The position numbers and the translations under genes are program-made. This document shows positions 11,905-54,449 of a stretch of 64,000 nt of DNA, piece after piece. How positions within the stretch are numbered: the stretch's first letter is position 1; every line of letters begins with the position of its first letter. The notes beneath the pieces are model-generated. The model searched no databases. It was not told the origin of the DNA and saw nothing but the letters and a program-made list of their open reading frames with translations. This DNA comes from Azolla caroliniana (lineage: Eukaryota > Plantae > Polypodiophyta): NCBI GenBank assembly GCA_043228905.1, contig JBHGNT010000022.1, positions 2,356,001 to 2,420,000 of the forward strand, given 5' to 3'.

Positions 11905-12060
11905 ACTAGCAAGCGACTCGGGATGCGGACTGGGCCAGACCAAGCGGTTGCAAATTGGATGGATCGGTCGGGTCGGTCGATCACGGTGCATGGTGTCTTA
12001 AAGATATTTGGTTCAAAAGCCTAATAGTATTTTGTGCATAAAAGAAAAAGATGTAACCAA

Positions 12061-12113
12061 GACTCGAACTTTGCGCCTCCAAGATAAGAAGCAATAGGCT
12101 TACCATTAAGTCA
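12061..12113 (-). promoter_or_regulatory. tRNA-type Pol III A-box/B-box cassette in H LTR (antisense)
   Basis: Minus strand TGACTTAATGG-N33-GTTCGAGTC. Confidence 0.65.
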
Positions 12114-12921
12114 AATCATTTCTTTAGGGATTATATTTTTATCATTATAGCTTTACATGAAAATTCTCATATTAGAGCTTGATTGAGTGACATGTGATGC
12201 ATGAGCGCCAAATGGCAAACATACATCACATGCATTCCATGCATGTCTTGTACCCTCACATGCATCATATGCATGGGAGCATCTATAAAAGGGTGGATGA
12301 AAAAGACAAAAGGGAACAATGTAATAATCGAGAAATTAAAAGTAAGAAACTCGTTATCCAATTGATGTATCAATTTTGTTCTTCAAATCTAAAGTCAAGA
12401 ATTCAATCTTATTCTCTCTCAATCTAAAGTCAAGCGTTCTATCTTATGTTAATCTCTCTCTTTCAATCTATCTTTAAAAATACTTTCTCGCTAAAGCAAG
12501 AGCATACTTCGAATCCTTCTGGTCTAGAACCTCGGCGGTTCCGCCTCACAATTCGCGCCTAGTGAGGAATCTTCACGACACCACTCTAGTGCTTGCACAT
12601 CTCAATGGTCTTGCAACAAATTTTAAGGACTAGTATAAAAATTTCTCTTTAGGGCATTTGTATGTATAGAGTTTTTGATTATTTTGAAATTGAGTTTCTT
12701 GTGTTCTACTCTAACTCTATCTCTCCCGTGTACTATATTCAAGCTTTCCATTAAACCTTGACTTCCTTGTTTTGTTGTTATCCAGCTCTATCGGTTTTGT
12801 CTACCCTTTCACACATTCACTTTTATATGGTATCAAAGTGTGAGGGTTAAGAATCCTTTGTTGTTGACGAGTGACGCTTACAGACAAACCCTAATACTCT
12901 GTAGAGAACAAGAAGGAAAGA

Positions 12922-13340
12922 ATGGATAGAGGAATGGCTAGCTCGCTTCCAATGGAAAAGCTCGATAGAACCAACTACACATCTTGGTCTTACAAGATGC
13001 ACTGGTACCTGCTCGGGCTTGGCTACTGGAGTTATGTTGATGGAGATAACGATACAAAACCTAATGTGGCACACAAAGTCTATTCCTCTTGGGAATAAGC
13101 GGCAACCAGGATGTACTGCTTTGTGTCCAGTGTCGGCGATCAGCTCCTTAGCCATATCCAGGATGCCATGACACTAAAGGAAGCCTGGGTAAACCTGAAA
13201 AAGTTCTTCACCACAAGCACCACGGCCCGAAAGCTTCAACTCTGGCAAGAGTTGACCAACGTTCGATAGAAGGACATGTTGGTGGCCAGCTACATGACCT
13301 GTATTAAAGAGATTAGTTACTCCCTTGCCTCCATCAACAT
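12922..13340 (+). pseudogene. H copia Gag N-terminus
   Basis: Hand translation MDRGMASSLPMEKLDRTNYTSWSYKMHWYLLGLGYWSYVDG...KEAWVNLKK..., typical of a copia Gag N-terminus; two internal stops. Confidence 0.85.
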
Positions 13341-14659
13341 TGTCGTGCCTTTCGGCTCCGGATCGTTATGTGAGTCAGGCGAGAACCACTGAGGTTTTGG
13401 ACTAGGAGAAAAGAAAATTCTAAGGCAATTAAGAATATGAAATTTATTGTAAGAAAGAAAGATATGAAAAACTCGTGAATCCCACGAGTATAGTGTATTA
13501 GTGAGTACTCAGATTAAGAGAGAAAAATAGTTAGCAAATTCGTGAATCCCATGAATATATTATATTAATCAACCCTTGTAAAATAATCAACAACCTTATA
13601 CATATTTCTCTCCTCCTTATTGTGAAAGTGTTTTTAGAATCTAAGCCATTGAACATTAGGAGAATATAAAGTATAGATAATTCACCTTTTGAGGATAAGA
13701 ACACGAACTAAGACCTTAGGGAAGAAGTCAAAAGTAAAAGTACGAGACCAAGAGAAAAGTAAAAAGAGAAAACGCAGACTATAAAAAACAGTAAAAATAG
13801 AATGGTCATAACTCCCTCGTTGTTTATCCAAATATCACGTTTAAATATGGATTAGAAAGCTTGTAAAAAGCGCTTTCTATGGCTTTTTAAATCGCTTAAT
13901 TTGGATATCGGATGAGGGAGATATGACGATTAGAAGGTCGATGTATCATAGCTAAAAATAGGGAGATAAAAAGCTTCTAAAAATAGCATGAACGTGGATA
14001 AGAAGAGGAAGGTTATAAAAGAAGAAGTGAGATTAGTGAGGAGGGCTAAGAGTGAAGGTCAAAGAGTGGATGAAGAGTGTTAGGAAGAAGTGTCTTTGTG
14101 GAAGAGGAAGTGTCTTAGAAGAGGAAGGTCTTTGGTTTTAGTTCAATGTGGAGTTTGTCTCTTTTGTATTCTCTTGATGTTGGAATATCAGAACATTCTT
14201 ATTTCTTGCTCGCTTTCTCTATCTTTTTTCTTAGTTTCTTGAGTTATACTCTCTAATCATAATTACCTAGAGCTATATAATATATTATGATTTTCAACTC
14301 CATCTAATCGGTTTGGTCAAGCCCTCATATAGTGTATAACTATCTATTATCTTATACACCCTATCACTTATATAAGGATGGGAGAGGCTAAGCATGCTTC
14401 CTGCTTTCCCTAAAAGTTGTCACGCACACTAAATGTGCATGTGATGTTTTTTATTTATTTTTCAACCTTGCTTTTATTTGCTAAATATAGTGCTCATGCA
14501 CGCTAGATGTGCATGAGCAATATTTTATTGGTTTACATTTTTCTTATAAATAAAGTATTCACGAACTCTAAAAATGCATGACTTACCTTTTAAATAAAGG
14601 TAGACGTAAATAAAGGTCTTATAGGTATTAAATCTATACTTAGAACACTAAGGATAAGT

Positions 14660-14712
14660 TAGTACAATGGTAAGGTTGGGGTTTTTCTACGTGGAGGTAC
14701 AAGGTTTGAATC
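14660..14712 (+). promoter_or_regulatory. tRNA-type Pol III A-box/B-box cassette in F LTR (antisense to element)
   Basis: TAGTACAATGG-N33-GTTTGAATC (B-box probably CpG-decayed). Confidence 0.6.
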
Positions 14713-14873
14713 TTGCCCTATGCACGTAATAAATATTTTATTTTATTTATTATACTTACTTTAAATCGGATATAGTATTTTACATATTTCACGTAGTGTG
14801 TGATTCACACTACGACACTCGCCCCCTCCGAACCCGCACATCCTCCGGTATGTGCCGAAGTCCCCAATGCTTG

Positions 14874-16005
14874 CTATTCACCTTCATCCGAAGGTTCCAA
14901 CGATTCTCTCCTTAAGTCGACTATGAGTTGTAATCCACTTTCTTCGCTTTCCGCATCACCGGGATCTTCGTCCGATTGCTCCTCCTTGTCGGTCTTGTTT
15001 AGGATCATATAGGGTTCTTCATCAGTCCGCTTCTTGAAAATCTTCACCCGTTTCTCGGCTATAGGCACTCATAGCATCGTTCCATCCAACTCGTATAGTC
15101 GGTAAGTTCTGTTGTCGAAAACTTTCCGAACCTCGTATGGCCGGAACCACCTTTTTGCGAACTTCCTCATCGTTGTATGTTGATGATCCAAACTACTATC
15201 GTAGACAATCACCCAATCTCCTTCTTCAATTTTCTGCGGTCGTAGTCGGTGCTTTGTGTCAAACCGGCTTTTATTCCGGAATCGCACTTCTTGTTGTTGG
15301 CGTATTGCTTCCACTATGTCTTCCAGTCTTCCCTCTAGTTGTCGTATCCGGACCGCTAGTAGTTCTTCCCAGCTCATCTCTTCCTTCCACGGAAGCATTG
15401 TCCATGTCGCAATTGCGTTGTCCGTTGGCATTACCGGTGCTTGTTTGTTCATGAGTTCTGCTGGCATGTAACCGGTTACGGAGCTATGCGTCGTCCGATC
15501 TGCCCATAGTGCATACGGAAGCATTTGCAGTCAATCCTTCACCCTTCCATCGCATGCCTTCGCAAGTGCTTTGACGATCGGACTATGTCCTTGTTCGATC
15601 TTCCCGTTGGCTTCCGGATTGTATGTCGTTGTCAGTGTAAACCGAACTCCATGTTTGGCGAAGAATCCCCTAGCTTTGTCAAAGTCAAGTTCTCCCTGAT
15701 CCGCAATCACTTGTCCTACGCACCCATACCTGCAAAACACCTCCTACAAAAGAAATTGGCATACCGCAAAACACGTTTTCGTTCGTAGTGCTCGACCTTC
15801 TACTTGGTTTGTGAGATCTTCCCGAGCTAACACCAAGTACTTCTTTTGTCCGATCCCAGTCGACCATCCACTTGAAGTTGATTGTCGGTGAAAATGTCGT
15901 ATGTAATTCATCTCGGTGTCGAACCCCGGAGTAGACTTGACACTTCTCGCAGCTTCCCGTGAACTCCGCTACATCTTTGTACATATTCCTCCACCAATAT
16001 TTTTA
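14874..16005 (-). pseudogene. F integrase
   Basis: Motifs SCEKCQ, RYGCVGQVIADQGE, YNPEANGKIE, LPYALWADRTT, YRLYELDG; stops and frameshifts. Confidence 0.9.
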
Positions 16006-16036
16006 CGCTACATCTTTGTACATATTCCGCTACATC

Positions 16037-16317
16037 TTTACAAATATGTCTCTTCATCCGGTCTTCACCGGGTCTGTATCATCCGGTTCTTCGTAGCCGG
16101 GTACTCCTCATCCAGTTCACACCGGGCCTGCACCATCCGGCTCTCCGTAGCTGGGTACTCTTCATCCGGTCTTCACCGGGTCTCTATCATCCGGCTCTCC
16201 GTAGCCGGGTACTCCTCATCCAGTTCACACCGGGTCTGTACCATCCGGCTCTCCGTAGCCGGGTACTCTTCATCCGGTTCTTCTCCCTTCCCATCCGGAG
16301 GGACCTGTCTCCCAACA
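16037..16317 (-). repeat. Partial LTR (U3) of copia family B with variant tandem repeat
   Basis: Ends GGACCTGTCTCCCAACA (reverse complement of the B LTR start); repeat units related to the 54-bp unit. Confidence 0.85.
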
Positions 16318-16322
16318 AATTC

Positions 16323-18101
16323 CACACTAGTCCGACCGGAATCAGATGGGTTATCAATCAAGAAGACGAAGATTGCAACCAATATGCAATTCTGTTTGGC
16401 GTGAAAGTGTTAAGTGATAGGCAAAGAAGGTATGTCCAAGTGAAGAGGGAGCTATGGGGAATTGTGTCGGCGATCAAGTCTGATCGTGACTACCTTATTA
16501 GAGCAAAAGTCATAATTGAGACATATTGTTTACCAATCTTGGGTATGATATTTGGTTGTAGTACACCAGATATTGTCATATTATGATGGATCCCATTTAT
16601 CAAATCACTCAACCCGGAGATCCGTCATATAGCTGGGAAGCGTAATGTCGTTGCAGACATGCTATCATGAGCGAGATACGACGGAGAAGAAGATCGCCAT
16701 TCTGATGAAGAGGATGTTGGCTTGGACTTCTTTACAAGTTCCTACGCTCGGGTGCTAACTACTTTCATAGAGGAAGACTACAAGGACGAGTTCATGGAGA
16801 TCGGGAAATTCTTGAGTTCTCTCCAAGAGATTCATGAATCTTCGTTGACGGAAGACTTCCACCAAATTCGAAAGAAGGCGTACAAGTATTTCCTTAAGGA
16901 TGGAGCTCTTTGGAGGCATGCGAAAAAGAAGAATGGGACACCAATGAGAGTTGACTACAAGCTCGAAGACCAACAAAAACTGATGTCCGAATTTCAAGAT
17001 AGTGTTTTTGCAGGCCACGTTTGCAAAACTTAAGGAGAAATATTGGTGGCCAGGCATCTACAAGGATGTAGCAACTTATGTGGAAACATGTAAGGAATGT
17101 CAGATGTTTTCTAATATTTGCCACCGAGATGAACTTCATCTGACTTATCCGTTGGCTATGCATTAAAAGTGAATGGTGGACATCGTAATGATGCCAATGG
17201 GGCAATGGAAGATGAGGTATCGTGTGCTCGCGAGAGAGGATCTTACCAATCAAGTTGAAGGGCGAGTATTCAGAACTAAGGAAATATAATTAGTATGCAG
17301 ATTCCTTCTTGAAGATGTTAGTTACTGATATGGATGCGTTGGCAAGATAGTGGCGGATAGAGGCGAGCTGGATGCCAATGAAGCTCGAGAATTCTTTTCC
17401 AGGATGAGAATCAAGTTATCTCTTACCACGACGTATAATACGGACGCGAATGGGAAAGTGGAATGTGGACATGGACCGATGTTGAAGGCTCAAGTGAAAG
17501 CTTGCCGTGGGAAAATAGGAGAATGTCCGCGTCTATTGCCATTTGCACTATGTGCTAACAGGACTACTCATAGCACGGTGACGAGATACATGCCGACTGA
17601 TCTCATATTCGGACAGAAGCCGATAATGCCAATGGAACAAAGTATTGCATCATGGCTGGTATTGCCATGGCAAGATGAGATAAGCAGAGAAGATCTACTA
17701 ACATTGAGGATTCAACAGTTGGAGAAGAAGTCGGCAGATATAGAAGTGGCTAAAGCACGACTAAAGAATGCACAAGGGTAAAGAATAGAAAAGACTTCGA
17801 CTGACGACATTGACTTCGTCCGAGGAAAATCGTTGAAGGAGATTGGGTGCTAGTCTACGACAGTAGCCTAGACAACCAACACAATACAGTTCGGAAATTT
17901 TCGCAACGATGGTTTGGACCAGATGTGGTGAAGAAAGTGGAAGATAATACGACATATCATTTAGCAAAACGGGATGGTACATCACTTGCTTTGCCAATTT
18001 CCGGGCAAAAAATCAAGATCTTCAAGAGAAGAGATAGAATGGAAATCAGATTCAAAGCTTTATACAATTTTGTGTTAGGAATCGACGACAAAGTAGAGTA
18101 A
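16323..18101 (+). pseudogene. Fungal-like gypsy family G RNase H-integrase, heavily decayed
   Basis: Motifs YVQVKRELWGIV, ADRGELDA, LPFALCANRTT, YHLAKRDG; homologous to C1 and F pol; PPT GGTGGGGGTGAA before 18166. Confidence 0.88.
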
Positions 18102-18165
18102 TAAAAAGAGGAACCTCACCACAATTGGCACATACCGGTGGATGTGCAGGTTTGGTGGGGGTGAA

Positions 18166-18518
18166 TGTCATGTGGTTCTTCACACACAATATGAAAAATA
18201 ATGAAAATAATTATTTTAGTTTATCTTAATGGCTTGGTATGAAAAGATGGATATCTTCAAGAGCTTCCGAACGCATTTTACTACATATGAAACGGACAAC
18301 TAAGTATCAAGTTATGTGAGTATGAAGTTTGACAAGATGGGGAAACAAAACTGAGAAAAATCTCACATAGACAGGAAAACATCGGATCCAACATTATATA
18401 AGTAGAGCCAAAACCCATCTACTCATATTTGAGTGTTCTAGAGTGATTCATAGTGCACAGGTTGTTCGTAGTGCACGGGCCGTTTGTAGCGCTCCTAGTG
18501 CACGACCCGTTTTCATGG
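18166..18518 (+). repeat. G 3' LTR, first part (interrupted by C1; resumes at 55561)
   Basis: TGTCA directly after the PPT; TAGTGCACGGGCC repeats on both sides of the C1 insertion. Confidence 0.7.
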
Positions 18519-19138
18519 TGTTGTGGAGAAAACCGTCCCTAGGAGGAATCAGTGGATGGTGTGCGGGAACCGACCCTTACACACGGGCACATGTTTGGAT
18601 GTATTTACATACATAGTTAAGTATAGGTCAGCGATGTAATTATCCTAGGTAGCACGAATTCATTAAGTAGGGAATCGAAGAGGATCTCTATTCGAAAGGA
18701 CAGAGAATAATAGTGATTTAACAGTCTGTAAACGACTCTCTCTCATTGTGCTATAAAAGGAGAGGAAAAGGGCCTTATTAGGGATCACACATTTTGAGGG
18801 GACGAAGTGTTGTGGGATTGGGAACCGAGCTCTCTCCCCCACAATCGTTGTTGTTTCTACAGGGATTTTGGGTTAGGTTGGTTGCCTCTGCTGCATGAAA
18901 GCCCACGTGCTTCCAATAGAGGCTCCACCACGTATTTTAGTGCGTGTGTTCGTCTGTCACCGGCTTGCCGGTTGTAACATTGTAGGCTTTGTAATATATA
19001 CTGTTATTGGAATTGATTCTTTCATTTTTGTCTCTCTGTGTTTCTGCGAATCTCTCTCCCTCTTCTCTCTCACGCTCCTCGGTTCAGGGACCCCGCAATC
19101 CCGCCTTATTTCATACACGTGAGCATAACAACGCGACA
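18519..19138 (+). repeat. C1 5' LTR (620 bp)
   Basis: TGT(T/C)GTGGAGAAAACC...GCGACA; TATAAAAGG at ~18752; matches the split 3' LTR. Confidence 0.92.
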
Positions 19139-19141
19139 TAT

Positions 19142-19160
19142 TGGTGAACCCGACATGAAT
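19142..19160 (+). promoter_or_regulatory. C1 primer-binding site, tRNA-Trp-like
   Basis: TGGTGAACCCGACATGAAT, 3 nt after the LTR; matches the complement of the plant tRNA-Trp(CCA) 3' end (recalled from memory as TGGTGAACCCGACGTGAAT) at 18/19. Confidence 0.75.
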
Positions 19161-19164
19161 TAAG

Positions 19165-22100
19165 GTGGCAGAGGAATCGAAAATAAGGGGATCAGAGCTC
19201 GTTGAAGCCATGGAGGCAATGGTCGATTGGATAGTAAGTGCTCGCGAGGGCATGGGCGCCCTCGACAGGGCAATCAAAGCAATTGTCGGCACAATAGGCC
19301 GGTTCGATGGGAAGGACGCCATGAGTTATTTGGTGGCCTACCGGGCCGAAATGGTGATGAGGGACATCCCGGAGGAGAGGCATCTGGCTGGGTTCCCTCG
19401 GGTAGCGACACCGGGCATCCACGCAGAGGTGCTCGAGGTGCAGGCTGGATGCCGGACTTGGGGGGAATTTGAAGCGCGGCTCCTCGAACGGTACAAGCTT
19501 GATGACATGCTTCGGTTATCGATCAAGGACTTTATGGATTGGGTGGAGACCTTAGGAAAGGCGAGGAATGCGTCGGTGCTCCTCTAGGAGTTTGAGGAAC
19601 TCTGAGCATGCCTCTGAGCATTGGACAGGACCGTACTGGACACGAGTCGTGCCGTTTTATTCGTCAAAGTTGTGGATGTGCGGGATCGGGAGCAAGTGGG
19701 TCTCCTGCTGGAGATGGACGATGAGTTGACGACCGACTGGGTTGTGCTAAAAAGGGTCTACAGCCTCGCGACCGAAGGCCTCCGCGTGGGCATCGATGCT
19801 TGTGGTGTGACGCGGCCGGTCACGTCTGGAAGGACTGCATGGACTTGATAGAAGAATTAACGGCTAATATAGATGGAAGAAGCGGCGGCCCGCCACTTGG
19901 AGACCATCCACTACTCGGTGTCGATAGGGATCCGGGTTGGGAGTGACGAAGGCCGGAAGACGAAGGAGTCCGGGTTCTGGCCGGTGGTGCTAGAAGGCCT
20001 CGCCGACGTGCGGGTGAGAAGGGAGGAACTGAACCGTGCGGAAAGACGGGTCCGAGAGGTCACCGGGTGGAGTGATCTAGTTGAAGAAAAGATCGCGTTT
20101 GTGGAAACCGTGTGCCAGAACTACGAAGTTTTGGTAGAAGACAAGTGTGCGGAAAAAGCCAGGGGAGCCGGACCCTCACAGCGGTATGACGTTGATGCTG
20201 CCGGCACACCGGATAAAGCAAAGAAAGTCGGTTACCGGTTGAGCATTGAGATAGAAAGAACGACGGACCTGCGGAAGGTCCTTAAGGAACGAATCCTCGA
20301 TGGCAAGGTGGAGTTGTCGCTGAGGGAAGTGCTCAGGATTGCCAGGAAATAATTTCATGACTCCATCGTGGACTTAGTGAAGCGAAAAAGGTTTTTGATG
20401 GAACCGGAGCCGGAAAGGCTAGTTGAGGTGCAAATGACGCACCTAGAAGACATGGCCCTGGAGGACGAGTTGGCGAAAAGCCAGTACTCAAAGCTGCATT
20501 GGGCAAGAGCCACTACGGAGACCCCGGTTATGATCGGGGACGTTCAGGAGGTGGTGGTAGCATTGGTAGAAGACGTTTCAGAGATCAACTTGATGTCCAT
20601 GGACTTCTACAAGAAGGGCAAGTGGCCGATCAACACCAAGCACGGGTAGAAATTACGAACGGCAATGCGCACCATGGAAGAGCTACATGGGGCCTGCCCG
20701 AATGTGTGGGTGAAAATCGGTGAAGTCGAGATCAACCAACACTTCTTCGTGCAGGAGACATCCTTGCATCCAGTGATACTCGGAGAACTGTACATTATGG
20801 CAACGCGTATCGAGAGGAAAGTGCTGGATAACGGTTCGGCGTACACACGCGTGAAGAGCCAAGATGGACGACACTCCGTCCAATTCCTGACCGTGCGACC
20901 AAACCATGAACACAACTGCGAGACCCTTGGCGGTGAAAGTCGAGGGGATTTTTAGAGAGGGCTATCAAGGCGTGGCGCCACGATAGTTCGGACACCCCAA
21001 AGGATCCCCACACCTGTACCATAGGTCGGAAGTTTTGGTTCTCCGATAGCGGAGGTTGTACAGTAGCTGGCATCATTTGCCGGGAGAAGAAGCGGGTAGA
21101 GGAACGACTCAGGATATGTAGAGTCCTCGCCCCCGATGAGGAAATTAGTGGTGCCGTGGATATGGTCTCTTTCGACGATACCCTCGGGGAAATCGGGAAG
21201 GTGATCGAAGAAGGCCTCAGTGAAGACCGGCTGATTCCGGTTAACTTTGTGGAAATGTACGAAGTCATTTCCGACTTCGGGGAAAGGGTTAGCTCGGATC
21301 GGACGACCTGCGTGTATACAAGGTACAAGAATGTGGACCGGAAGGTAAGGCCAGTCGTGGCACCCTTGTCAGAGGGCACCTAAACCCCTAAACCCCAGGC
21401 GTGAGACCCAAGTTTGCGGAATCCGGCCGGCATAGGACACTGGTTCACCAACATAACACTACGGGAGCTCAAGATTGGTGGGGGTGGAGGAGGACAGGTT
21501 TCGGGGAATCCTCGGAAGGTACAGGAAGGCCTTCGCGTTCGCGCCGGGGGAGATCGGGTGCGTGGACCCGACGATCGTGGAACCAATGATGATCTTCACG
21601 GTACTGCATGTATCGTGGAATCTCAAGGCAATTCTAGTACCCAAAGCTCACATCCCGAAGTTGATGGAGCTGCTAAAGCAGAGGGTGGAGATGGGCATCC
21701 TCGAGCCGTCGAGTGCCCCATATTCAAACTGGTGGTTTACTGTGCCAAAGAAGAACGGCACGCTGCGCTTCATTCAGGACCTGCAACCGGTCAATAAAGT
21801 GACCATTCGAAATGCAGGTATCGGGCCAACCATTGGCGAGTTTGCGGAGGCCTTTGCCGGAAGGTCGATCTATTCGGTCGGGGACCTATTCTTGTCGTAC
21901 GACTAGTTCCAACTAGCTATGGAGAGCAGGGATATTACGACGATGCGAACTCCTCTCGGCCTAGTGCATATGTGTACCTTGCCGCAAGGAGGGACCAACT
22001 TGGTGGCGCACATGGTGAACACTATGAACAAAGTGCTGAGAGACTGCATCCCGGACATCACCATGCCGTTTTTGGATGACATATCGATAAAAGCATGTCC

Positions 22101-23088: not shown

Positions 23089-23095
23089 CAGTTTT

Positions 23096-24384: not shown

Positions 24385-24836
24385 TATCATGATATGGCAA
24401 GACTCGAACCCATGACCTTATGCTACATGGGTCGAGCTCTTACCATTAGACTATGAATTGTAATTTGTAGGATATTATTTTCATTTATGCTTTATCATAG
24501 AAAATTGATTTATATTCCAGATCTCTCTGGAACATTCTAGAAGCTTTAGGCTTATTCCTAAAAACACTATAAAAGGAGGCACAAAGCATTGTTTTGAACC
24601 AAATTGCTTCAACACCAGTCTTAAGCCTCTTAGCCGCTTTGTACTTATCTTTCACATAATATATTAGCTGATGTCATCATCTCTCTCTCTCTCTCTCTCT
24701 CATTCTCGCTATCTCTCTCTCTCTCCTCTTCTCACTTCCTCTCTCGGGAGTCTTACGCAGTCCCGTCCCCTTAGTACTAATAGTACTACTCTTCTTTAGT
24801 ACTCATTCCATCTCTGTTTTAGTACTATTCCTGACA
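24385..24836 (+). repeat. D 5' LTR
   Basis: T(A/G)TCA...TGACA termini; TATAAAAG at ~24568; (CT)n tract; matches the 3' LTR. Confidence 0.93.
24401..24453 (-). promoter_or_regulatory. tRNA-type Pol III A-box/B-box cassette in D LTR (antisense)
   Basis: Minus strand TAGTCTAATGG-N33-GTTCGAGTC; also at ~39644-39696 and twice in 54313-54449. Confidence 0.7.
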
Positions 24837-24838
24837 AT

Positions 24839-39627: not shown

Positions 39628-40071
39628 TGTCATGATATGGCAAGACTCGAACCCATGACCTTATGCTACATGGGTCGAGCTCTTACCATTATACTATGAA
39701 TTGTAATTTGTAGGATATTATTTTCATTTATGTTTTATCATAGAAAATTGATGTATATTCCAGATCTCTTTGGAACATTCTAGAAGCTTCAGGCTTATTC
39801 CTAAAAACACTATAAACGGAGGCACAAGGCATTGTCTTGAACCAAATTGGTTCAACACCAGTCTTAAGCCTCTTAGCCGCTTTGTACTTATCTTTTACAT
39901 AATATATTAGCTGCTGTCATCATCTCTCTCTCTCTCTCATTCTCGCTATCTCTCTCTCTCCTCTTCTCACTTCCTCTCTCGGGAGTCTTACGTAGTCCTG
40001 TCCCCTTAGTAGTAATAGTACTACTCTTCTTTAGTACTAATTCCATCTCTGTTTTAGTACTATTCCTAACA
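39628..40071 (+). repeat. D 3' LTR
   Basis: TGTCA start after the PPT; direct repeat of 24385-24836. Confidence 0.93.
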
Positions 40072-43641: not shown

Positions 43642-46406
43642 ATGGACTGCCAAACACTGTCTGAAGCCGCCATGAAATGGTACGGCAACACGGGCTGGAG
43701 GGTTTCTTGATGATCATGGAGGTAGTGCCACACAAGGAGGCCGAAAAGATTATCAAAGAAATCGACACAGAGGTGATCACGAAGTAGGCGATCCGTGCGT
43801 TAACAGGCCTTCTAGAGGGGGGCATCTACACGATCGACAATCCTACCTCCGAGCAGCTCATCAAATATTTCGGTAAGTATTCTCTTGCCAGCAAAGGCTA
43901 CAGGACACAGGGAAGACATGTTATTCGGCGAAATTGCCCGTATACTCCATGAGTTCGGCCACGTATACCCTCGACCCCCTGTTATGCCTCAGAACCGAGC
44001 AGGCTTGATTATCGCGACATACGAAGGGGTCAAGGTGGATTGGCCGGTGCTGATTGCCGACAGGTTGTGTACGGCTATTGATATCGTAAGAGGAAAGGAT
44101 GGCAAGGAAGGCTGGAAAATATGGCATGCGATGACGCAATGGCTCACCCTATTGGTGCCACCGGTCGAGCCCGTCCAGACCAAGAAGCGGGGAAGAGCAA
44201 TGGACGGCACCCCGAAACTTGCTTCGAAACAACAACAATTGTTGGCTTCCAAGGCCACTAAGGGAAAGACGGCCGACACAGAGAAGGCGGCAAAGGAGCG
44301 CGCCAGCTGAAAGCAGCCGACGGACACACACAAGGAGACACCGGCACAGCCCCTGAGGAGCCCACTCCACCAACCGGTGCAGCAAGAAACAGACACCCTA
44401 GCGGCAAGAATGAATGTCGGGACTCAAGCGGAGGAAATGGAGGAAGAACCCACAGAGCACCTCCAGCGGCGGCTGGTGAAGAGCACCGTTGAATCAGCCG
44501 GGAAGCGTTCGGACCCACAGAAGGATGGAACGCCCGCAACTCATACTGAGCATCCCACGCCAAGGGAGGCACCGGAACCGGTCACAGAAGTCCCTGCACA
44601 ACAGGCAGCACCCGCAAGCCCCGTAACTCAAGAGCACGTTATACAAAGGCCAACCTCCTCAGCCGGCCAAGAACAAGCAGACAAGGGGCGGCTAGCCCAA
44701 TCACACCCAGAGCCGGAACGGCAAAGTGGTTAGCAGGCAGAACCAGAAGTGCAGCTCGACGCAGTTATGCGCGATCGGCCACTGGCAAGTGAACCCATCA
44801 GCCAACCCGCCGTGCAGACGCAACAACATTGCACCGGCAGCCAATGGCTCCGGTGGGTAGGAGAACAAATTGTCGGAGTAGTCGGATGCATAGAGGCGGA
44901 AGAAAGAGCGCAAACAGAACGGTTGCTCGTCACAACCGATGAACTGGAGACGGCCCGGTCAAGGATCCGGTGCCTCAAACAAGACTTGGATCGGATTACC
45001 GAAGACATGGCCAAAATGGCCTTAACCGCAATGCAGATCCAAGCACCGGTGACTCCAGTGGATGTACACATGAATAAGACCCCGGAGACGGAAACTGTCC
45101 CGGAGAAAGATGTGGCGCAAGCCCAAGAGCTTGCGGAATTACGAGACGAACTTGCCGCACAAGAAGCATTACGAAGCCGTGAACGAGACTTGAAGAAGGC
45201 GGTCGAAGAAAACTTAAAGAAGACTGTTGAGAACCTCCGCCGGGCAGAGGAAAACCTGCCTAAAGGACATCACGCATACGACCGGCTAAAGGAGGAAAAA
45301 GAGAAATTGCTGCAGGAGAAAGACAAGCTGCGACGGATGGCGGAGACGGAAATCGAAAGGCTGAAGGAAGAACTCCGTCAACAGAAGGACCGGGAGGACC
45401 GCGCGCGCCAGCAGATCAACTAGAGGCTGAAGCAAAAGACCGATGATTTTGATCATCTACACCGGGACTACAAGCAGCTGGAGACGGAGTATAAGCAACA
45501 GTAGGAACGGATGGCCGAGCTTCGGCAAGAAGTTGATAGGGCCACAACGACACTCGCCGACGAATGAGCTGAGAGTTCCAAGCTATTGGAGGAAGCGGCG
45601 ATGGACCGGATGGAGCTCCACAAGCAGAACCATGAAGAAAAGGAAAGGGCGACAATGGTGTTATAGAGGTTACAAACAACCTATCAAAGTCAATTGTCGC
45701 GTTATAGGGAGCAGGAGGCGGACATGGTCTGAATCATCAAGCAATTGAAAGAGGCGTGACAAGCCGCAAAGAATAAATCACAGATGGGAACCGAACGGAT
45801 CCAGTGCATCCTCCAGTCATGGCTCACCAAGACCAAAAGCTTGATTGACAAGAGCTCTGTGCGATGGTGGACGAAATGGCGCAGAATACGACGGAACTCC
45901 AATTACTTAGGGCGGACGTCGAAAACCGGCAGAAGGAGGGTGACGACTGTTATACGCTGACATCGGAGGACTTCACCACCATAAGGGATGAGCTGGCCGA
46001 AGATTTCACAGCCTTGGCGGATGAACAATTGGTGCAGGTCCAGCAACTCGTAGCTCAACTAGACGATGATCGGCTGGAGGCCCAAATCCAGTTTGAGAGC
46101 TATGAGCGGTCCCGGCTCCGGTAAGAAAAAGCAAGGAAGGCAGCAACGGTCAACCTTAGTGATGAGGAACCGTCGCTGGTACAAGGACCAGACGGGGACC
46201 AGTCCGGGATCAGTCAGCCAACGACAACTCCGACGGAGGAGACAGTGAAGGAAACGCCGGTGCTAGAGCAACAAACGGAGCAGCAGCCCCAAACGGAGAA
46301 GGCACAAATAGAGCAGCCACCGTAGCAGCCACAGTAGCAACAGATTCTCGACGAGGCATTGGAAATTCCGGAGCAAAGCATTCTAGACATTCTAGACGAA
46401 GCATAA
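43642..46406 (+). pseudogene. E extra ORF3 homolog
   Basis: LFGEIAR, IATYEGVKVDW, QWLTLLVPP, QWLRWVGEQ, EIERLKEELRQQKDR and terminal EQSILDILDEA* all align to A ORF3. Confidence 0.85.
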
Positions 46407-46460
46407 CAGGGCCGGATAATGGGTTCGACGTACAAGGTACTGTCCAACGGGCGTGCCATG

Positions 46461-46907
46461 TGTTACTCGACCGGCAAGAAGGCTTAAGGAGGTCTAAACC
46501 AGAGTGTGAAAGGAATAGTTTATTTGGGAACTGTTGTAATTAGTAGTCTTAAAATATATTAATATATGAGAAGATGTGGACGGATGAACTGGAATCGGTA
46601 TGCCGATCCGGATCCAGACTGATTCCGAAAAAGGTGCCTTTTGGCACCGTTTTCTACTTCGCACTGGAGACCTATATAAAGGCCCAGTTATAATGTAATC
46701 GACAGTGGATAATTAATAGAACTTATTACCTTAATCTTTCAATATTGATTACCATTCTGTACTCATTGTTATATCTTACGCGTGTTAATGATGTGTTGCT
46801 AAGTAATTGATTAAGGTCTAATTAAACGTTGAGCCGTAAGTCATCCTGCCGTAACACCCTTTGGTGAAGTGTCTTAAGTGGCTATTGTCCGGCCCCTAGG
46901 ATTAACA
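46461..46907 (+). repeat. E 3' LTR
   Basis: Direct repeat of the 5' LTR with a ~15-bp U5 deletion. Confidence 0.93.
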
Positions 46908-46912
46908 TTCCC

Positions 46913-48653
46913 TATCCGGTTCGTAGCTAAGGTTCTCAGTGAGTGACAGCGAGGATACGCCCAAGTTAAGTGCGAGCTCTGGGGTCAAGGCCGACAAAGA
47001 CTACCTGATCGGGACAGAGGTAATAATAGAGACAAACTACTTACCGATTCTCGGTATGGTTTCCGGATGTGCGACGCCAGACCTGGCAATGCTCAGATGT
47101 ATCGCGTACATCAAGTCCCTAAGTCTGGAGATGCGGTATATCTCCAGAAAGGACAACGCCATGGCCGACATGCTTTCAAGAGCGCGGTTTGACGACGAGG
47201 ATGGCATGGTTTCTGAGGACGAAGAAGTTGGCGAGAACTTCTTCGAGTCGGCTTACCTGGCAAGGGCAGGTAGCACCCCGGTGGTTAACGAGTTTGACGA
47301 GGGAGAATACGAAGGGGAGTGGCTCAAGATCGGTAGATTCCTGAAGACAATGACGCCGGACACTACGTGGACGAAAGACGAAGCTAATCGGGTCTGGAAG
47401 AACGCGCACTGGTTCTTCCTACGGGGTAGGAACCTATGGAAGCATCCGAAGAAGAGAGGTGGCATCCCACTACGAATAGTGGCAGGGAAGGAGGAGTGGG
47501 AGATGTTGCTCGCGGCATAGTACGAGAATCCTTGGGTTAGTCACTGCAAGACTTGGGCCACGTTCGAGAAGCTAAAGGAGAAGTATTGGTGGTTGGGACT
47601 ATATCGGGACGTGCACCGGTTCGTAAGGATCTGCGAGAACTACCAGATGCACTACATGATCCAGCATCGAGACGATCTGCACCCAACCTACCCCCCGACC
47701 GTCCATTTCAAGTAGATGGTAGATTTGGTGACCATGCCGATGGGGATAGGATAGATGCGGTACCTGGTCCTGGCGCGAGAGGACTTGACGAACAATTTGG
47801 AGGGCCGCGCAATGCAAAATAAGACGACTGCGGCGGTATACCGATTCCTTATTGAGGAGGTGGTGTGCCGGTACGGGTGCGTAGGGAAGATTGTGGCAGA
47901 TCAGAGGGAGCTAGACGCGCAACCGAAGAGTTGTTCAACCGGCTAGGGGTCAAGCTCTCCCTCACTACGGCATACAACCCAGAGGCAAATGGGAAGATAG
48001 TATGAGGGCATGGCCCAAACGTGAAGGCGCTGGTGCGAGCGTGTGAAGGTCAGGTCAGGAATTGGCCACGGCTCTTACCCTACGCATTATGGGCAGACCG
48101 AACTACGCACATCTCTGTAACCGGGTTCATGCCGGCGGAGCTGATGTACGGGTAGAAGCCGATCATGCCGATGGAGAGAATGATCTCCTCGTGGGACGCG
48201 GTGGACTGGAGAGATGAGGTGAGCCGGGAGGAGCTGTGAGCGGCGCGAATCCAACAACTCGAGCGAAGACCGGAGGACGTGGAACAAGCAATGGCGAAGC
48301 TGCATGCAACAATGACAAAGAACAAGGGGCGATTCGACCGGACTCACCGACTATGACCAAGGAAAATCAAGGAAGGCCACTAGGTTTTGGTCTACGAAAG
48401 CAGCCTCAACAACCAGCACAAGGCACTGCGGAAGTTTGCAAGGAGGTGGTTCGGGCCATATGCGGTGACAAGCACCAACGACAATGGCACCTACCACCTC
48501 GCGGAACTCGACGGAAATAGAATAATTGTGCCGGTGGCCGGAAAGAGGATCAAGGCGTTCAAGAAGCGGCACAAGGACAAACTAGATCCAGAGGGCATGG
48601 ATGGCAACGATTACCGGTTCGGAGCGGGTGGCAAACCGGAGAGCAAAAGATAA
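46913..48653 (+). pseudogene. C1 RNase H and integrase
   Basis: NAMADMLSR, REDLTNNLEGRA, RYGCVGKIVAD, WFGPY, YHLAELDG. Confidence 0.9.
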
Positions 48654-48726
48654 TCGCGGGCCAGTCTTCTTTGGCAGAAGTCTATTCTGGCGCATACCGG
48701 AGGATGCACAGTTAGGTGGGGGTGGA

Positions 48727-48816
48727 TGTCGTGGAGAAAACCATCCCTAGGAGGAATCGGTGGATGGTGTGCATGAACCGGCCCTTACACACGGGCACAT
48801 GTTTTGATGTATTTAC
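48727..48816 (+). repeat. C1 3' LTR, part 1
   Basis: TGTCGTGGAGAAAACC after PPT AGGTGGGGGTGGA; matches 18519 onward. Confidence 0.9.
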
Positions 48817-49228
48817 TGGAGGGAACTCAACGTTCCTTATGCGCAATGCTCGGCCACAACCGAGCTTAAAATCATACACAGAAAACAGGAAATAAAACGC
48901 ACGACACAAAGAGGAGAAGAGTGCACAGGATGTTTACGTGGAAAACCCAAAGAGGGAAAAACCACGGCAGCCCACAGGCTGCAAACTATCACTATGCTAG
49001 AATGTACAACAGTGAGTTCACGGAGGCAACGACCTCTTCCTCTCTCTCTTACTCTCTGTACACTGCTACGCACTCTGATCTCACGTAGACAAGAATAACA
49101 ACAACTGACTAAAAGTTTGCCCTAAGTCATATTTATACTAATATGACTTTTCGGCTATTTACAAATATAGCCTCGATGGACTCTCAGAAACATATTTACG
49201 AATATGTCTCTTCATCCAGTGAGCATTC

Positions 49229-49520
49229 CTCACCGGGTCTGCACCATCCGGCTCTCCCTAGCCGGGTACTCCTCATCCGGTTCTCACCGGGTCTGCACCA
49301 TGTGGCACTCCGTAACCAGGTACTCCTTATCCGGTTCTCATCGGGTCTACACTATCCGGCTCTCCGTAACCGGGTACTCCTTATCCGGTTCTCACCAGGT
49401 CTGCACCATCCGGCTCTCCGTAACCGAGTACTCCTTATCCGGTTCTCACCGGGTCTGCACCATCCGGCTCTCCGTAGCCAGGTACTCCTCATCCGGTTCT
49501 CACCTGGTCTGCACCATCCG
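49229..49520. repeat. 54-bp tandem repeat, 5 full + 1 partial unit (B2 3' LTR)
   Basis: 18-codon periodicity visible in the sequence and in the ORF track. Confidence 0.9.
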
Positions 49521-49582
49521 GTTTCGGCATTGTTCTTCTCCCTTCCCATCCGGAGGGACCTGTCTCCCAACAAACTCCCCCT

Positions 49583-52500
49583 TCACTCTGGCATGGGGTG
49601 TCTTACTAGACCGATCCTCTTCCGGCATGCATCCAGCATGTCGGGTATCAGAACTTTGGTCAGCATATCTGACCCGTTCTCGGCTGTGTGGATCTTCGTC
49701 AGCGCGAACTCCTGGTCATCTACTCTTTCCCGGATCCAGTGATATCTTCGCTGGATATGCTTCGTCCGGGAATGGTAGGCCGCATTCTTAGCAAGGTGGA
49801 TGGCACTTTGACTATCGCAATAGAGCCTGTATTCATCTTGTCGGATCCCGAGCTCTCCGATGAAGTCCTTCATCCATAATATTTCCTTGCCAGCTTCCAC
49901 AGACGCGATGTACTCCGCCTCCGTGGTTGACAACGCAACCGTCTTCGGCAGCCTCGACTGCCACGAAACAACTCCCCCTGCATATGTCATTACATACCCA
50001 AATGTAGACCGGCTGGTATCCACATCAGCCGACATGTCCGAATCTGTGAAACCGTCAAGTTGAGGTTTTTCGGAGCCGAATCGGAGACACATATTTGAGG
50101 TGCCCTTCAAATACCGGAGTATCCATTTGACCGCGTTCCAGTGCTCCTTGCCGGGATTGCTCATAAACCGGCTCACCACTCCGACTGCGTATCCTATATC
50201 CGGTCGGGTACACACCATTGCGTACATCAAGCTCCCGACGGCAGAGGCATATGGAATCTTCATCATATCTGCCTTCTCTATTTTCGTCTTCGGGCTTTGC
50301 TTGCCGGATAACCTGCAGTTTTCCGGAAGTGTCGATCCGTCCGGTTTCGCATCTGACATGTTGAACCGGTGAAGCACCTTTGTCACGTACTTCTCCTGTG
50401 ATAGCCATATTTGCTTCGCTGACCGGTTCCGGATAATCTGCATCCCCAGCATCTGTCTTGCCGGACCCAAGTCTTTCATTGAGAAGGTCCGGTTGAGGGC
50501 CTTCTTCAGCATCCATATTTTGACTTGGTCCCGTTTGACGATCAACATGTGGTCCACGTACAGAAGGAGTATCAGGAAGTCGCCTCCTTCGAACTTCTTC
50601 ACAAACACGCAGTGATCGGCCTGCGTCTTGTGGTACCCTTGATTGGCCATGAAGGAATCAAACTTCCGGTACCATTGTCGGGGGGCTTGCTTCAGTCCGT
50701 ACAGGCTCTTCTTCAACCGGCATACTAGGTGCTCCTTCCCTTTCTCCACGAATCCTTCCGGTTGCTCCATGTCGATCTCCTCTTCGAGGTCGCCGTGAAG
50801 GAATGTCGTCTTCACGTCTAGCTGCTCTACCTCGAGGTTCATGCTTGCCGCTATACTCAGCACCGTCCAGATGGAGGTCATCTTTACTACCGGGGCAAAT
50901 ATCTCATCGAAGTCCACGCCCTTTTTCTGCTGGAACCCCTTCACCACGATCCTGGCTTTGTATCTCGGGGGGTTGGCAACATCTCCCGGTTTCAACTTGT
51001 ACACCCACTGATTTCGGAGTGCCCGCTTTCCTTTTGGAAACTCCACCAATTTGAACGTATGGTTCTCATGCAGGGAATCCATCTCATCCTGCATTGCACT
51101 TAACCATTTTCGGCTGTGGGTGTCATCCTTCGCTTCTTCGAAGCTTTCCGGCTCCCCCACATCGGTCAGCAGAACATGCTCTGCATCCGGAAATCTCCGG
51201 GGGGCCCTTCTCTCTCTGAGAGGATATCTCCGTCTTAGGGCTTCGGTAACCGGTTCCTTCATTTTCTCTTTATCTGAATCCGATTCGGGGTCTTGGCCGG
51301 TTCCGGTCTCAGCTTCCTCTACTTCTTCTTCTGCCCGTTCGGTATTGTCACCGTAACCGGCTGCTTCCTCGAGTGCTAACCGGTCTCTTACCGGTTGGGT
51401 CTGCTCATCGTAGAGTCTATCCTTATCGGTCGACTCGGAGTTCATTATCTTCTTCTCCGACTCCCAGCCGGCGAGCGTCTTGTCCTCCATGAAGATAATA
51501 TCTCAACTCCGGAATACCTTCTTGTCGACCAGGTCCCACACTCGGTAGCCGAACTCATCGTCACCGTAACCGAGGAATATGCATGGCCGTGTCTTTGGAT
51601 CTAACTTTCCTCTCCGGTCCTTAGCTACATGCACGTACGCGAGACACCCGAACAACTTCAGATGCCGGTAGGACACTTCCTTACCGGTCCATACTCTCTG
51701 TGGCGTGTCTCCGTCCAAGGGTACTGAGGGTGATCTGTTTATCACATATGTCGCCGACGACAATGCCTCAACCCAAAACTTCTTGGGTAGTTTTGCATGC
51801 GCTAGCATACTTCGGACCCTCTCCATTATGGTCCGGTTCATCCTCTCGGCCAGTCCGTTTAGTTCCGGCGTCTTCAGCACGGTAGATTCGAGCCAGATTC
51901 CCTTCGAGCGACAGTACTCCTCGAAGTACCCCTGGTATTCACCTCCGTTATCTGCTCGAACCGCCTTCAGTTTCCGGCCGGTTTCTCTTTCCACTCTCGC
52001 GTGGAGTTCTTTGAAGACGGATAACACCTGATCCTTCGTCTTCAACGGTGTGGCCCATAGCTTCCGGATGTGGTCATCTATGAATGTCACAAAGTACTAC
52101 GCTCCGGCATGTGACTTCATGTGTACTTGACACACATCAGTATGCACCAACTCCAATGGTGCATTACGTCTCATCGGTGGCCTTGGTCGGAAGGAGGTCC
52201 GGTTTTGGTTACCGGCCAGACAATCAGTGCACTTCTCCAAGTGCACGTTCTTCACTGGAATGAGGTTGTCGTCTGCAAGCCTCTTCATCCCCTTCTCGCT
52301 CATATGACACAGCCTCTTGTGCCACAACTCACCAGTAGTGTCGGATGCCACGTTCACTTCTTCCAGACATAACCGGGCATTCATCAGGTACAGTGTGTTG
52401 ACCTTCCGGGCCCGAGCCACAATCAGGCTCCCTTTGCTGAACTTCATGACACCATTCCGGATGCTACCCGTGTAGCCTTCATCATCTAGCTGACCGGCTG

Positions 52501-53628
52501 ATATCAGGTTCATGCGAACCTCCGGAACGTGTCAGACATCCTTCAGCAGCAACTTGCATCCGGTTGGTGTTGTCAGCCACACATCTCCTGTGCCAACAAT
52601 TCGGCATGTACTTTCATTCCCCATCCGGACATAGCCGTGATCACCGGCTGAGTAGGATGAGAAGCATTTTTGGTCCGGGGTAAGGTGGAACGACGCTCCG
52701 GAGTCTACCACCTAGGTCATCTCGTCACCGGCAAGGTTTATCACACTCTCCTCGGTGATGAGCATCAACTCTTCTTCACTTGCCGCGATTGCCGTCGTCC
52801 CCTTCCGGTCCAACCCCCTCCGGTCTTTACCGTTCCGGTCCGGTGTCCGCTTCGAATCGGTACCATCGGTTTCCTTGTCTTTCCGGAAATGCCGACAGTT
52901 CTTCTGGAAGTGTCTCGGCTTGCTGCAATAGAAGCAAGTAGGCCTCCCCCTTGACTTTGACCGTGTTCCCGACTTTTCCCGGTTCCAGGGATTACGGTTT
53001 CTTTGTCTTCCGCGTTCCGATTCAGTAAGTAGCGTTTTGGAGTCGGGGCTCGTATCTTTATCTTTCCGACGCGCCTCCTCATCTAGCAAGCTCAACTTTA
53101 CTCTCGCTAGGGATAATCGTTTTCCTTCCGGCCCGGCGTTGCCCAAAGTGACAACCAACGTCTCCCAACTATCCGGGAGGGAACCAAGCAGGAGTAGTGT
53201 TAGTACCTCATCGGCGAGAGGTACTTCCAATGAAGTTGCCTGGTGGATCAGCCCCTGGAAGGCATTCATGTGCTCTGCCATGCTGGAGCCATCTTGGTAC
53301 CGGAGTCTTACTAGCTTCCGGAATACCGAAACCAGATTAACAGCATTTTTGTTTTGGAACATTATGCCGATCTTCTCCCAGAGCTCATGACCCTTGCTCT
53401 CTTCATTGAAGTTGTTGTACAAGCTCATGTCAATGAAGCACCGTATGTACGTTGTTGTCTTCATGTGCATCGCCTCCCATATCGCGGCATCGATTTTGTC
53501 TGGTCTCTTCTCCCAAACTGAACCGGAAACCAGAGGTCTTTAACCATGAGCATGTCCCTCAACTTCGACTTCCACACTGAGTAGTTGGAACCGGTGAGCT
53601 TGAACATGCCGCCAAACGATTCATCCAT
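49583..53628 (-). pseudogene. B2 gag-pol (Gag, CCHC, protease, IN, RT, RH)
   Basis: MDESFGGMFKLTGSNYSVWK..., LLLLGSLPDSW, VVDSGASFH, LLYVDHML; several stops. Confidence 0.95.
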
Positions 53629-53945
53629 TTTCTGCGTCGTTTTGCTCTGATACCACTTGAAGGGAACTCAACGTTCCTTATGCGCAATGCTCGGCCACAA
53701 CCGAGCTTAAAATCATACACAGAAAACAGGAAATGAAACGCACGACACAAAGAGGAGAAGAGTGCACAAGATGTTTACGTGGGAAACCCAAAGAGGGAAA
53801 AACCACGGCAGCCCACAGGCTGCAAACTATCACTATGCTAGAATGTACAACAGTGAGTTCACGGAGGCAACGACCTCGTGGTCATGATCCTCGCCACAGG
53901 CGGCAGTTACAATAAGAGGCAACGACCTCTTCCTCTCTCTCTTAC

Positions 53946-54449
53946 TCTTAAGCCTCTTAGCCGCTTGTACTTATCTTTTCACATAATATATAGCTGTTGT
54001 CATCATCTCTCTCTCTCTCTCATTCTCGCTATCTCTCTCTCTCTCCTCTTCTCACTTCCTCTCTCGGGAATCTTACGTAGTCCCGTCCTCTTAGTACTAA
54101 TAGTACTGCTGTTCTTAGTACTAATTCCATCTCTGTTTTAGTACTATTCCTGACAGTTTGAACCAATTTGGTTCAAAACAATACCTTGTGCCTCCTTTTA
54201 TAGTGTTTTTAGGAATAATCCTGAAGCTTCTAGAATGTTCCAGAGAGATCTGGAATATACATCAATTTTGTATGATAAAGTATAAATGAAAATAATATCC
54301 TACAAAATACAATTCATAATCTAATGGTAAGAGCTCGACCCATGTAGCATAAAGTCATGGGTTCGAGTCTTGCCATGACACTTCATAATCTAATGGTAAG
54401 AGCTCGACCCATGTAGCATAAAGTCATGGGTTCGAGTCTTGCCATGACA
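53946..54449. mobile_element. Rearranged D-family LTR insert: R-U5-PBS (+) fused to inverted U3 (-)
   Basis: TSD CTTAC at 53941-53945 and 54450-54454; the other B2 LTR is empty at this site (~49048). Confidence 0.9.

What the first reader, a model, noticed from the sequence alone, without database searches (positions are those of the whole stretch)
12052..54449. Same antisense tRNA-type Pol III cassette near the U3 start of three unrelated LTRs (copia H, gypsy F, chromovirus D)
Seen: H (12061-12113, minus) TGACTTAATGG-TAAG...GTTCGAGTCTTG; F (14660-14712, plus) TAGTACAATGG-TAAG...GTTTGAATCTTG; D (24401-24453, minus, and other copies) TAGTCTAATGG-TAAG...GTTCGAGTCTTG. All three have exactly 33 nt between the A-box GG and the B-box G, with a largely unconserved spacer. 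All are antisense to the element and point out of the LTR 5' end. Established: this is the internal promoter geometry of tRNA genes (positions 20-52), bound by TFIIIC; tDNA and TFIIIC sites can act as chromatin barriers; Cassandra TRIMs carry 5S-derived Pol III promoters in their LTRs. Inference: several LTR lineages of this genome carry a TFIIIC-recruiting module, perhaps an insulator against silencing or an outward Pol III promoter. The cloverleaf is not preserved and F has an internal T5 run, which favours factor binding over a functional RNA.
Basis: partly seen in the sequence, partly recalled or inferred. Interest (0 to 1): 0.85.

Follow-up and report, generated by a model that had tools for sequence, protein, structure and literature searches.

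The report
Backward tRNA promoter in retrotransposon ends
Two distant groups of plant jumping genes carry the same back-to-front relic of a tRNA gene promoter near the outer edge of their terminal repeats, and its pattern of change suggests it is likely kept as a binding site for the RNA polymerase III machinery, although binding and any effect are untested.

Summary
The cassette is real. Six copies with a 33-nt spacer sit in the window; 0.075 are expected by chance. All are antisense in U3. 'Copia H' is a gypsy-type LTR (11905-12580) related to F, lying beside a separate copia LTR remnant, and 12052 is not its start. So there are two lineages, a Tcn1-like chromovirus group (D) and a Phygy-like gypsy group (F, H), not three unrelated ones. 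Seven of ten LTR families in the window show no cassette. In 84 related LTR loci it is a fixed family feature, and no free SINE copy was seen. A14 is invariant, A-box variants mostly keep TRGYNNAR, and the boxes persist while the mid-spacer and inner U3 diverge. F avoids T4 inside the cassette and has T4 about 20 nt after it; the internal T5 is private to the window copy. Against: subfamily F1 has fixed C56T in the B box, D's conservation may reflect its own hairpin, and nothing shows binding or RNA. It is closest to Helenus/Cassandra, but antisense and in coding elements. This scan noted similar cassettes earlier in fungal genomes. Verdict: new variant; function inferred.

The parts
12061..12113 (-). 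H cassette: A box (1 mismatch), 33-nt spacer, B box
12045..12049 (-). T5 run 8 nt after the H cassette's CTTG (candidate Pol III terminator)
11905..12580 (+). H LTR, 5'-truncated by copia element B; gypsy-type, related to F (shared 3' end motif and 3' spacer); TATA 171 nt inward of the A box
12581..12827 (+). 3' remnant of a separate copia LTR, followed by a TGGTATC PBS (Met type by recall) at 12828 and a copia-like gag start (read by eye); no cassette in the remnant; not the H LTR
14660..14712 (+). F cassette, antisense to F; B box has T at position 56 (subfamily F1); private internal T5
14736..14739 (+). T4 run 20 nt after the F cassette's CTTG; same place (18-21 nt) in 20 of 22 related copies
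13341..14817 (-). F 3' LTR (Phygy-like, after a PPT), interrupted by an unrelated solo LTR at 13621-14366 with TSD CTTAT
24401..24453 (-). D cassette in the 5' LTR; perfect boxes; folds as a long hairpin (z -5.7)
24385..24836 (+). D 5' LTR (Tcn1-like chromovirus); TATA 115 nt inward of the A box; sequence after the LTR matches an LTR palindrome (likely self-priming)
39644..39696 (-). D cassette in the 3' LTR, 16 nt from the PPT/LTR junction
39628..40071 (+). D 3' LTR, downstream of integrase and chromodomain
54317..54369 (+). D cassette in a rearranged D LTR insert; A box G10 to A
54386..54438 (+). second D cassette, part of an exact 69-nt tandem duplication (54313-54381 = 54382-54450)
53946..54450 (.). 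fold-back D LTR insert (R-U5 forward, U3 inverted, joined at the self-priming palindrome) inside a copia B LTR

Best explanation
Gypsy LTR families of two distant lineages in this genome carry one homologous, tRNA-like box A/box B module, antisense near the outer end of U3, which is likely kept by selection as a type-2 RNA polymerase III promoter, that is, a TFIIIC binding site. Shown: the module is a fixed family feature in both lineages, has tRNA geometry (33-34 nt spacer, AGGT in the variable-loop position) and has lost the cloverleaf. Inferred origin: a tRNA- or SINE-head fragment was captured once and passed between the Tcn1-like chromoviruses (D, K, probably J) and the Phygy-like elements (F1, F2, H) by nested insertion or template switching. 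Inferred mechanism: TFIIIC bound at the boxes would load TFIIIB on the inward side, in the AT-rich stretch between the module and the element's own TATA box (115-286 nt away). That would make a back-to-back Pol III/Pol II promoter pair, which would keep the LTR's outer edge open against silent flanking chromatin and, in F and H, yield a short (about 90-100 nt) outward RNA ending at the T run.
For: Six window matches against 0.075 expected. The same pattern hits real tRNA genes: 2 of 6 viral-contig matches and 12 of the 35 matches outside the main metagenome series. 84 of 85 loci from the main series lie in LTR families (D 54, F 23, J 6, K 1) at fixed distances from the LTR start. 3 of 3 F LTR starts found without the pattern and spanning the region also carry it, partly decayed. 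A14, not fixed by the search pattern, is invariant in 53 of 53 D, 23 of 23 F and 6 of 6 J rows. Non-major A-box alleles keep TRGYNNAR in 7 of 14 (D; null mean 2.9, P 0.006) and 5 of 8 (F; null mean 0.9, P 0.0002), and free position 12 is the most changed column in D (11 steps). Between the window's families the boxes match at 6-9 of 11 and 7-9 of 9 positions, mid-spacer at 2-7 of 18. Inner U3 does not align among D, J and K (z -0.1 to 1.5) although K's integrase is 63% identical to D's. In F, T4 inside the module is seen in 1 of 22 copies against 10 expected from shuffles, and T4 lies 18-21 nt downstream in 20 of 22. D and F integrase C-terminal parts show no tblastn match at E 1e-3, yet their modules align at 70% over about 70 nt.
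Against: No binding, chromatin or RNA data were available. Subfamily F1, which includes the window's F copy, has T at B-box position 56 in 15 of 16 copies while nearby CpGs are kept (12 of 14 and 11 of 11); C56 is a TFIIIC contact in yeast (PMC11724288, passages). One D subfamily (4 of 42 rows) has lost T8. Within D the spacer changes no faster than the fixed A-box columns (mean 1.9 steps against 1, 3, 0), and the fixed-versus-free column test alone is not significant (10 of 56 and 7 of 56 permutations). D, J and K have no T4 terminator inside the LTR (D and J counted; K read). Copies are related, so the P values are optimistic. B-box letters and J/K were found through the search pattern, so their conservation is partly built in. 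Seven of ten LTR families in the window show no cassette, including F's relatives E and G (the copia remnant could not be tested at its U3 start). Ten more distant chromovirus LTR starts lack it too, so the module is dispensable.
Confidence: 0.55

Rival explanations
1. The module is a tRNA/SINE relic that spread with successful LTRs but is kept for reasons unrelated to Pol III. In D it would be kept as a hairpin next to the PPT and integrase end; elsewhere as Pol II factor sites that happen to overlap the boxes (GGTCAA resembles a WRKY W box and GGTTAA a GT-1 site; both recalled), or simply through recent exchange between LTRs.
For: 54 of 55 D copies fold with z below -2 (median -4.3), while F (median -1.0) and J (0.0) do not. 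The hairpin also forms on the element's sense strand (z -4.5). F1 has fixed C56T. Individual copies decay at the B-box CpG about as often as at a spacer CpG (7 of 53 against 5 of 53).
Against: The hairpin is D-specific and cannot explain F, H, J or K. The mid-spacer has drifted to 2-10 of 18 identity between families while box spacing stays at 33-34 nt. A-box variants stay inside the degenerate consensus in two lineages. F avoids internal T4.
Confidence: 0.3
2. The module is a small-RNA gene. Pol III makes an antisense hairpin RNA (clearest in D) that is diced into small RNAs which limit the element or act on host genes, as with the Pol III microRNA genes in foamy virus U3.
For: D forms a stem of about 20 bp spanning box A to box B in nearly all copies. 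F and H have downstream T runs. Foamy virus LTRs carry Pol III microRNA genes with A/B boxes and terminators (PMC3993851, passages).
Against: D, the only family with a strong hairpin, has no terminator in its LTR; the first T4 varies from 20 to over 280 nt downstream. F, H and J share no structure.
Confidence: 0.1
3. The matches are independent SINE insertions or chance look-alikes.
For: Unrelated SINE-like heads from other metagenomes fit the same pattern (judged by eye). One locus of the main series (L115) is unassigned.
Against: Chance expectation is 0.075. The position is fixed within each family, and D's LTR ends 13 nt after CTTG, leaving no SINE body or tail. 84 of 85 series loci are in LTRs. 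A single ancient SINE capture as the origin is not excluded.
Confidence: 0.05

Closest known systems
Helenus (TRIMp3; Kojima 2024, PMC10886601; parts 1-4 of 6, searched passages and one supplement passage read)
   Same: tRNA-derived sequence in LTRs, conservation centred on boxes A and B, no functional cloverleaf, Pol III function inferred rather than shown.
   Different: Helenus elements are non-coding TRIMs of 311-1263 bp. In the one plant family (Selaginella Helenus-1_SMo) and the wasp entries seen, the tRNA part is in sense orientation. Here it is antisense, near the U3 outer end, in gag-pol-coding elements that keep a TATA box, and shared by two distant gypsy lineages. The paper also notes that 'not a few' Repbase LTRs contain tRNA-like parts, without analysing the non-TRIM ones.
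Cassandra and Ajax TRIMs (5S rRNA-derived Pol III promoter in LTRs; as described in PMC10886601)
   Same: Small-RNA-gene promoter captured into a plant LTR.
   Different: Type-1 (5S) promoter that drives the element's own RNA in non-autonomous elements; here a type-2 promoter that points away from the element.
Foamy virus U3 Pol III microRNA genes (PMC3993851, abstract and passages)
   Same: A/B-box Pol III units in U3 of an autonomous retroelement, beside the Pol II promoter; hairpin in D.
   Different: Those are shown to be transcribed and processed and have terminators at the hairpin base. Here RNA is not shown, and the hairpin family lacks an LTR terminator.
tDNA, ETC/COC sites and SINE B2 as chromatin barriers (recalled; no call)
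   Same: Box A/B or B-box sites that bind TFIIIC and can block spread of silent chromatin.
   Different: Shown in yeasts and mammals for host loci; my searches found no report for plant LTRs.
Tcn1 and Phygy lineages (Neumann et al. 2019, PMC6317226, passages)
   Same: D has a chromodomain and likely self-primes (Tcn1 features). F lacks a chromodomain and inserts at NCGN (Phygy feature).
   Different: The passages read mention no Pol III module in their LTRs. Lineage names here rest on features, not on a tree.

Membership tests
Helenus / TRIMp3 | tRNA-derived sequence with boxes A and B inside the LTR | tested here: met
Helenus / TRIMp3 | short non-autonomous element without coding domains | tested here: not met
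   D, K and F carry RT/RNaseH/integrase frames; H and J internal regions not seen
Helenus / TRIMp3 | promoter in sense orientation, able to drive the element's RNA | tested here: not met
   antisense in D, K, F by PPT and ORF; sense in Helenus-1_SMo
tRNA gene | cloverleaf recognised by ARAGORN or the Rfam tRNA model | tested here: not met
tRNA-derived SINE (SINE2) | free-standing copies with body, tail and own TSD | tested here: not met
   84 of 85 series loci lie in LTRs at a fixed position; D LTR ends 13 nt after CTTG; capped sample, no genome available
Type-2 Pol III promoter | A box TRGYNNARNGG and B box GTTCRANNC at tRNA spacing | tested here: met
   0-1 mismatches at spacer 33-34; F1 deviates at C56
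Type-2 Pol III promoter | downstream T-run terminator, none inside | tested here: inconclusive
   met in F (20 of 22 at 18-21 nt) and H; not met within D, J, K LTRs
Type-2 Pol III promoter | plant upstream AT-rich region and CAA triplet (PMC7544208, passages) | tested here: inconclusive
   AT-rich in all; CAA-type triplet 7-5 nt before T8 in most D rows (C in 40 of 49), absent in F
Type-2 Pol III promoter | TFIIIC binding and Pol III transcription | not testable with these tools
   no ChIP or RNA data
Tcn1 chromovirus (family D, K) | chromodomain with aromatic cage; self-priming instead of tRNA PBS | tested here: met
   Pfam Chromo E 4.5e-13 and 1.8e-12; Y/F, W, Y cage residues read by eye; post-LTR sequence matches the LTR palindrome
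Tcn1 chromovirus (family D, K) | RT/INT phylogenetic placement | not tested
   no reference set on hand
Phygy (family F) | no chromodomain; NCGN target preference | tested here: met
   no Chromo hit in L067; 13 of 17 5' flanks NCGN, 3 more CpG-decay forms
Phygy (family F) | RT/INT phylogenetic placement | not tested
   no reference set on hand
   H LTR ends at 12580; depth break and F-like end motif; H's own internal region not seen

The most novel reading that the evidence does not exclude
Autonomous retrotransposons that insert into silent chromatin have traded between distant lineages a portable tRNA-promoter module that recruits TFIIIC to the outer edge of each LTR and works as a built-in chromatin barrier, scattering very many Pol III factor sites through a plant genome.
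Probability: 0.25. Interest if true: 0.85.

Novelty: new variant of a known kind. Interest (0 to 1): 0.6.

Why it matters
Pol III promoters in plant LTRs are described for tiny non-coding elements, where they are thought to drive the element's RNA. An outward-facing copy in full coding elements cannot do that job, so it points to another use of the Pol III machinery, such as shielding the element's own promoter from silencing or making an antisense RNA. If TFIIIC binds, this gives a testable plant case of a tRNA-type boundary element, with natural controls in the same genome: sister families without the module, and a subfamily with an altered B box. It also shows regulatory modules moving between distant retrotransposon lineages.

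Tried and rejected
No whole genome is held, so no genome-wide, pattern-free count was possible; a search by locus handle was also not available. No RNA holder was listed for the stretch; this is no evidence on expression. ARAGORN and Rfam gave no tRNA match. A single-protein search of viral contigs found no relative. A landing-pad role was tested: only 3 of 25 D and 0 of 18 F copies break upstream of the A box, at 75, 98 and 101 nt, with no fixed short distance; not supported. A shared RNA structure across families was rejected, though GGT(N)AAG can pair with CTTGC in most. An ancient origin in all Tcn1-like elements was not supported: none of 10 distant LTR starts (integrase 33-54% identical where full length) has the module in its first 200 nt (one had only 61 nt). 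One of the 32 loci scanned, L134, has a 1-mismatch antisense match with a 42-nt spacer about 340 nt into the LTR, without TAAG/CTTG, which I treat as chance. Longer homology of H with D or J inner U3 was only borderline (z 2.5-3.0 among 21 comparisons). The read laying variant tables were cut to 40 rows, and copies with the 34-nt spacer were clipped as loose ends, so they were not used to rank box against spacer. Rows dropped before counts: L071 (a tRNA gene) and L050 (off register); also L053, L026, L068, duplicates and rows with short flanks.

Full report
Setting. The window is a nest of LTR retrotransposons. The host is likely a seed-free plant such as a moss or clubmoss. This is inferred: among named near-full-length hits, those of element A's polyprotein closest in identity (43-49%) come from liverworts and a fern, and Tcn1 and Phygy elements are reported from mosses and clubmosses (PMC6317226, passages).

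The observation. A scan for TRGYNNARNGG plus GTTCRANNC found six matches with a 33-nt spacer and at most one mismatch: H 12061-12113(-), F 14660-14712(+), and D at 24401-24453(-), 39644-39696(-), 54317-54369(+) and 54386-54438(+). Forty shuffles gave a mean of 0.075. The families share AATGGTAAG, GGT in the variable-loop position and CTTG. No tRNA is called, but the pattern hits true tRNA genes elsewhere, so the geometry is tRNA-type.

Which elements. D has LTRs at 24385-24836 and 39628-40071, a PPT and a chromodomain. In place of a tRNA PBS it has a match to a palindrome in its own LTR, so it is Tcn1-like. F is a minus-strand gypsy 3' LTR (13341-14817) without a chromodomain; 13 of 17 family 5' flanks are NCGN, the Phygy signature. 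The integrase C-terminal parts of D and F do not match each other at E 1e-3. H is not copia. Its LTR ends at 12580 in CACGACA, summed depth falls from about 160,000 to 680 there, its end motif and 3' spacer match F-family LTRs, and the copia PBS at 12828 follows a different LTR remnant. Other H copies run across 11990-12180, so 12052 is not the start. H's internal region was not seen, so its lineage is inferred from the LTR alone. Of ten LTR families in the window, three carry the module. A, B (copia, complete), C, E (first 351 nt), G, the solo LTR inside F and the copia remnant (3' part only) score 3 or more mismatches at best.

Related copies. A metagenome scan gave 120 loci (capped). 85 come from one series of assemblies holding a related plant; 84 of these lie in LTR families: D 54 loci, F 23, J 6, K 1. 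K is a chromovirus with integrase 63% identical to D and a different spacer. J resembles K and D at its start (67-74%); its internal region was not seen. The position is fixed by family: CTTG ends about 13 nt from D's LTR start and 100-114 nt from F's. Three F LTR starts found without the pattern also carry the module, partly decayed; one D copy has lost the A-box half. Ten more distant chromovirus LTR starts lack it. So it is a lineage feature of this plant group, shared by two distant gypsy lineages, with homology limited to about 70 nt.

Signs of selection. A-box positions 8-15 were not in the search pattern. A14 is invariant in all D, F and J rows. Non-major alleles keep TRGYNNAR more often than a mutation-spectrum null (7 of 14 against 2.9; 5 of 8 against 0.9), and position 12 is the most changed column in D. 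Between families the mid-spacer falls to 2-10 of 18 identity and inner U3 stops aligning, while boxes and spacing stay. F is T-rich, yet 1 of 22 copies has an internal T4 against 10 expected, and 20 of 22 have T4 18-21 nt downstream; H has T5 after 8 nt.

Evidence against. F1 has T56 in 15 of 16 copies while other CpGs are kept; yeast TFIIIC contacts C56 (PMC11724288, passages). One D subfamily lost T8, and the simple fixed-versus-free column test is not significant. D's spacer is itself conserved and forms a hairpin in 54 of 55 copies, right beside the PPT, which could explain D without Pol III. D, J and K have no terminator in the LTR. Copies are not independent, and B-box conservation is partly built into the search.

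Mechanism (inferred). TFIIIC at the boxes would place TFIIIB upstream of the A box, which here is inward, in the AT-rich stretch before the element's TATA box 115 (D), 171 (H) or 286 (F) nt away. The result would be a divergent Pol III/Pol II pair at the LTR's outer edge. The likely benefit is open chromatin or a barrier for elements that land in other repeats; tDNA barriers are recalled from yeast and mammals and come from no call. A short outward RNA is predicted for F and H. None of this is shown.

Comparison. Helenus has tRNA-derived boxes in LTRs but is non-autonomous and, in the entries seen, sense-oriented (PMC10886601, parts 1-4 of 6 and a supplement passage). Cassandra and Ajax use 5S promoters. 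Foamy viruses have Pol III microRNA genes in U3 (PMC3993851, passages). Ten literature searches (listings, with passages of six papers read, including PMC13570524 and PMC7544208) found no report of an antisense tRNA-type module in autonomous plant LTRs. The library lacks most subscription papers, and Repbase entries were not visible. Earlier notes of this scan describe tRNA-like boxes in fungal LTRs; they are leads, not support.

Verdict.

Noticed in passing
window 7552-7561 and 46449-46458: Elements A and C have a tRNA 3'-end-like sequence (ending GGGCGTGCCA) in place of a PPT, 2 nt before the 3' LTR; earlier notes on this genome describe the same thing.
   Followed up: partly
window 53946-54450: D LTR insert is a fold-back: R-U5 forward, U3 inverted, joined at the self-priming palindrome, with an exact 69-nt duplication of the cassette; likely an aberrant reverse-transcription product.
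   Followed up: partly
window 13621-14366: Solo LTR of a further family inside F's LTR, with 5-bp TSD CTTAT.
   Followed up: partly
L056:3115-3175: A tRNA-like 3' fragment (Trp type by recall) lies in sense orientation just after an F LTR end.
   Followed up: no
window 12190-12232; L103, L114, L063: A GCATG-rich palindrome around CGCCAAATGGC is shared by H and J LTRs at a similar distance from the cassette and is very high-copy; may mark further module exchange.
   Followed up: partly
window 11231-11451, 16032-16317, 49229-49572, 54631-55028: A 54-nt tandem repeat lies in copia B LTRs and in a related stretch between F and E; a similar insert interrupts F LTRs in L067 and L121.
   Followed up: no
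window 19138-19155: Element G's PBS (TGGTGAACCCGAC) looks complementary to a tRNA-Trp 3' end (recalled).
   Followed up: no
L127-L157: Many bacterial and archaeal genome bins hold eukaryotic chromovirus contigs, that is, contamination.
   Followed up: no
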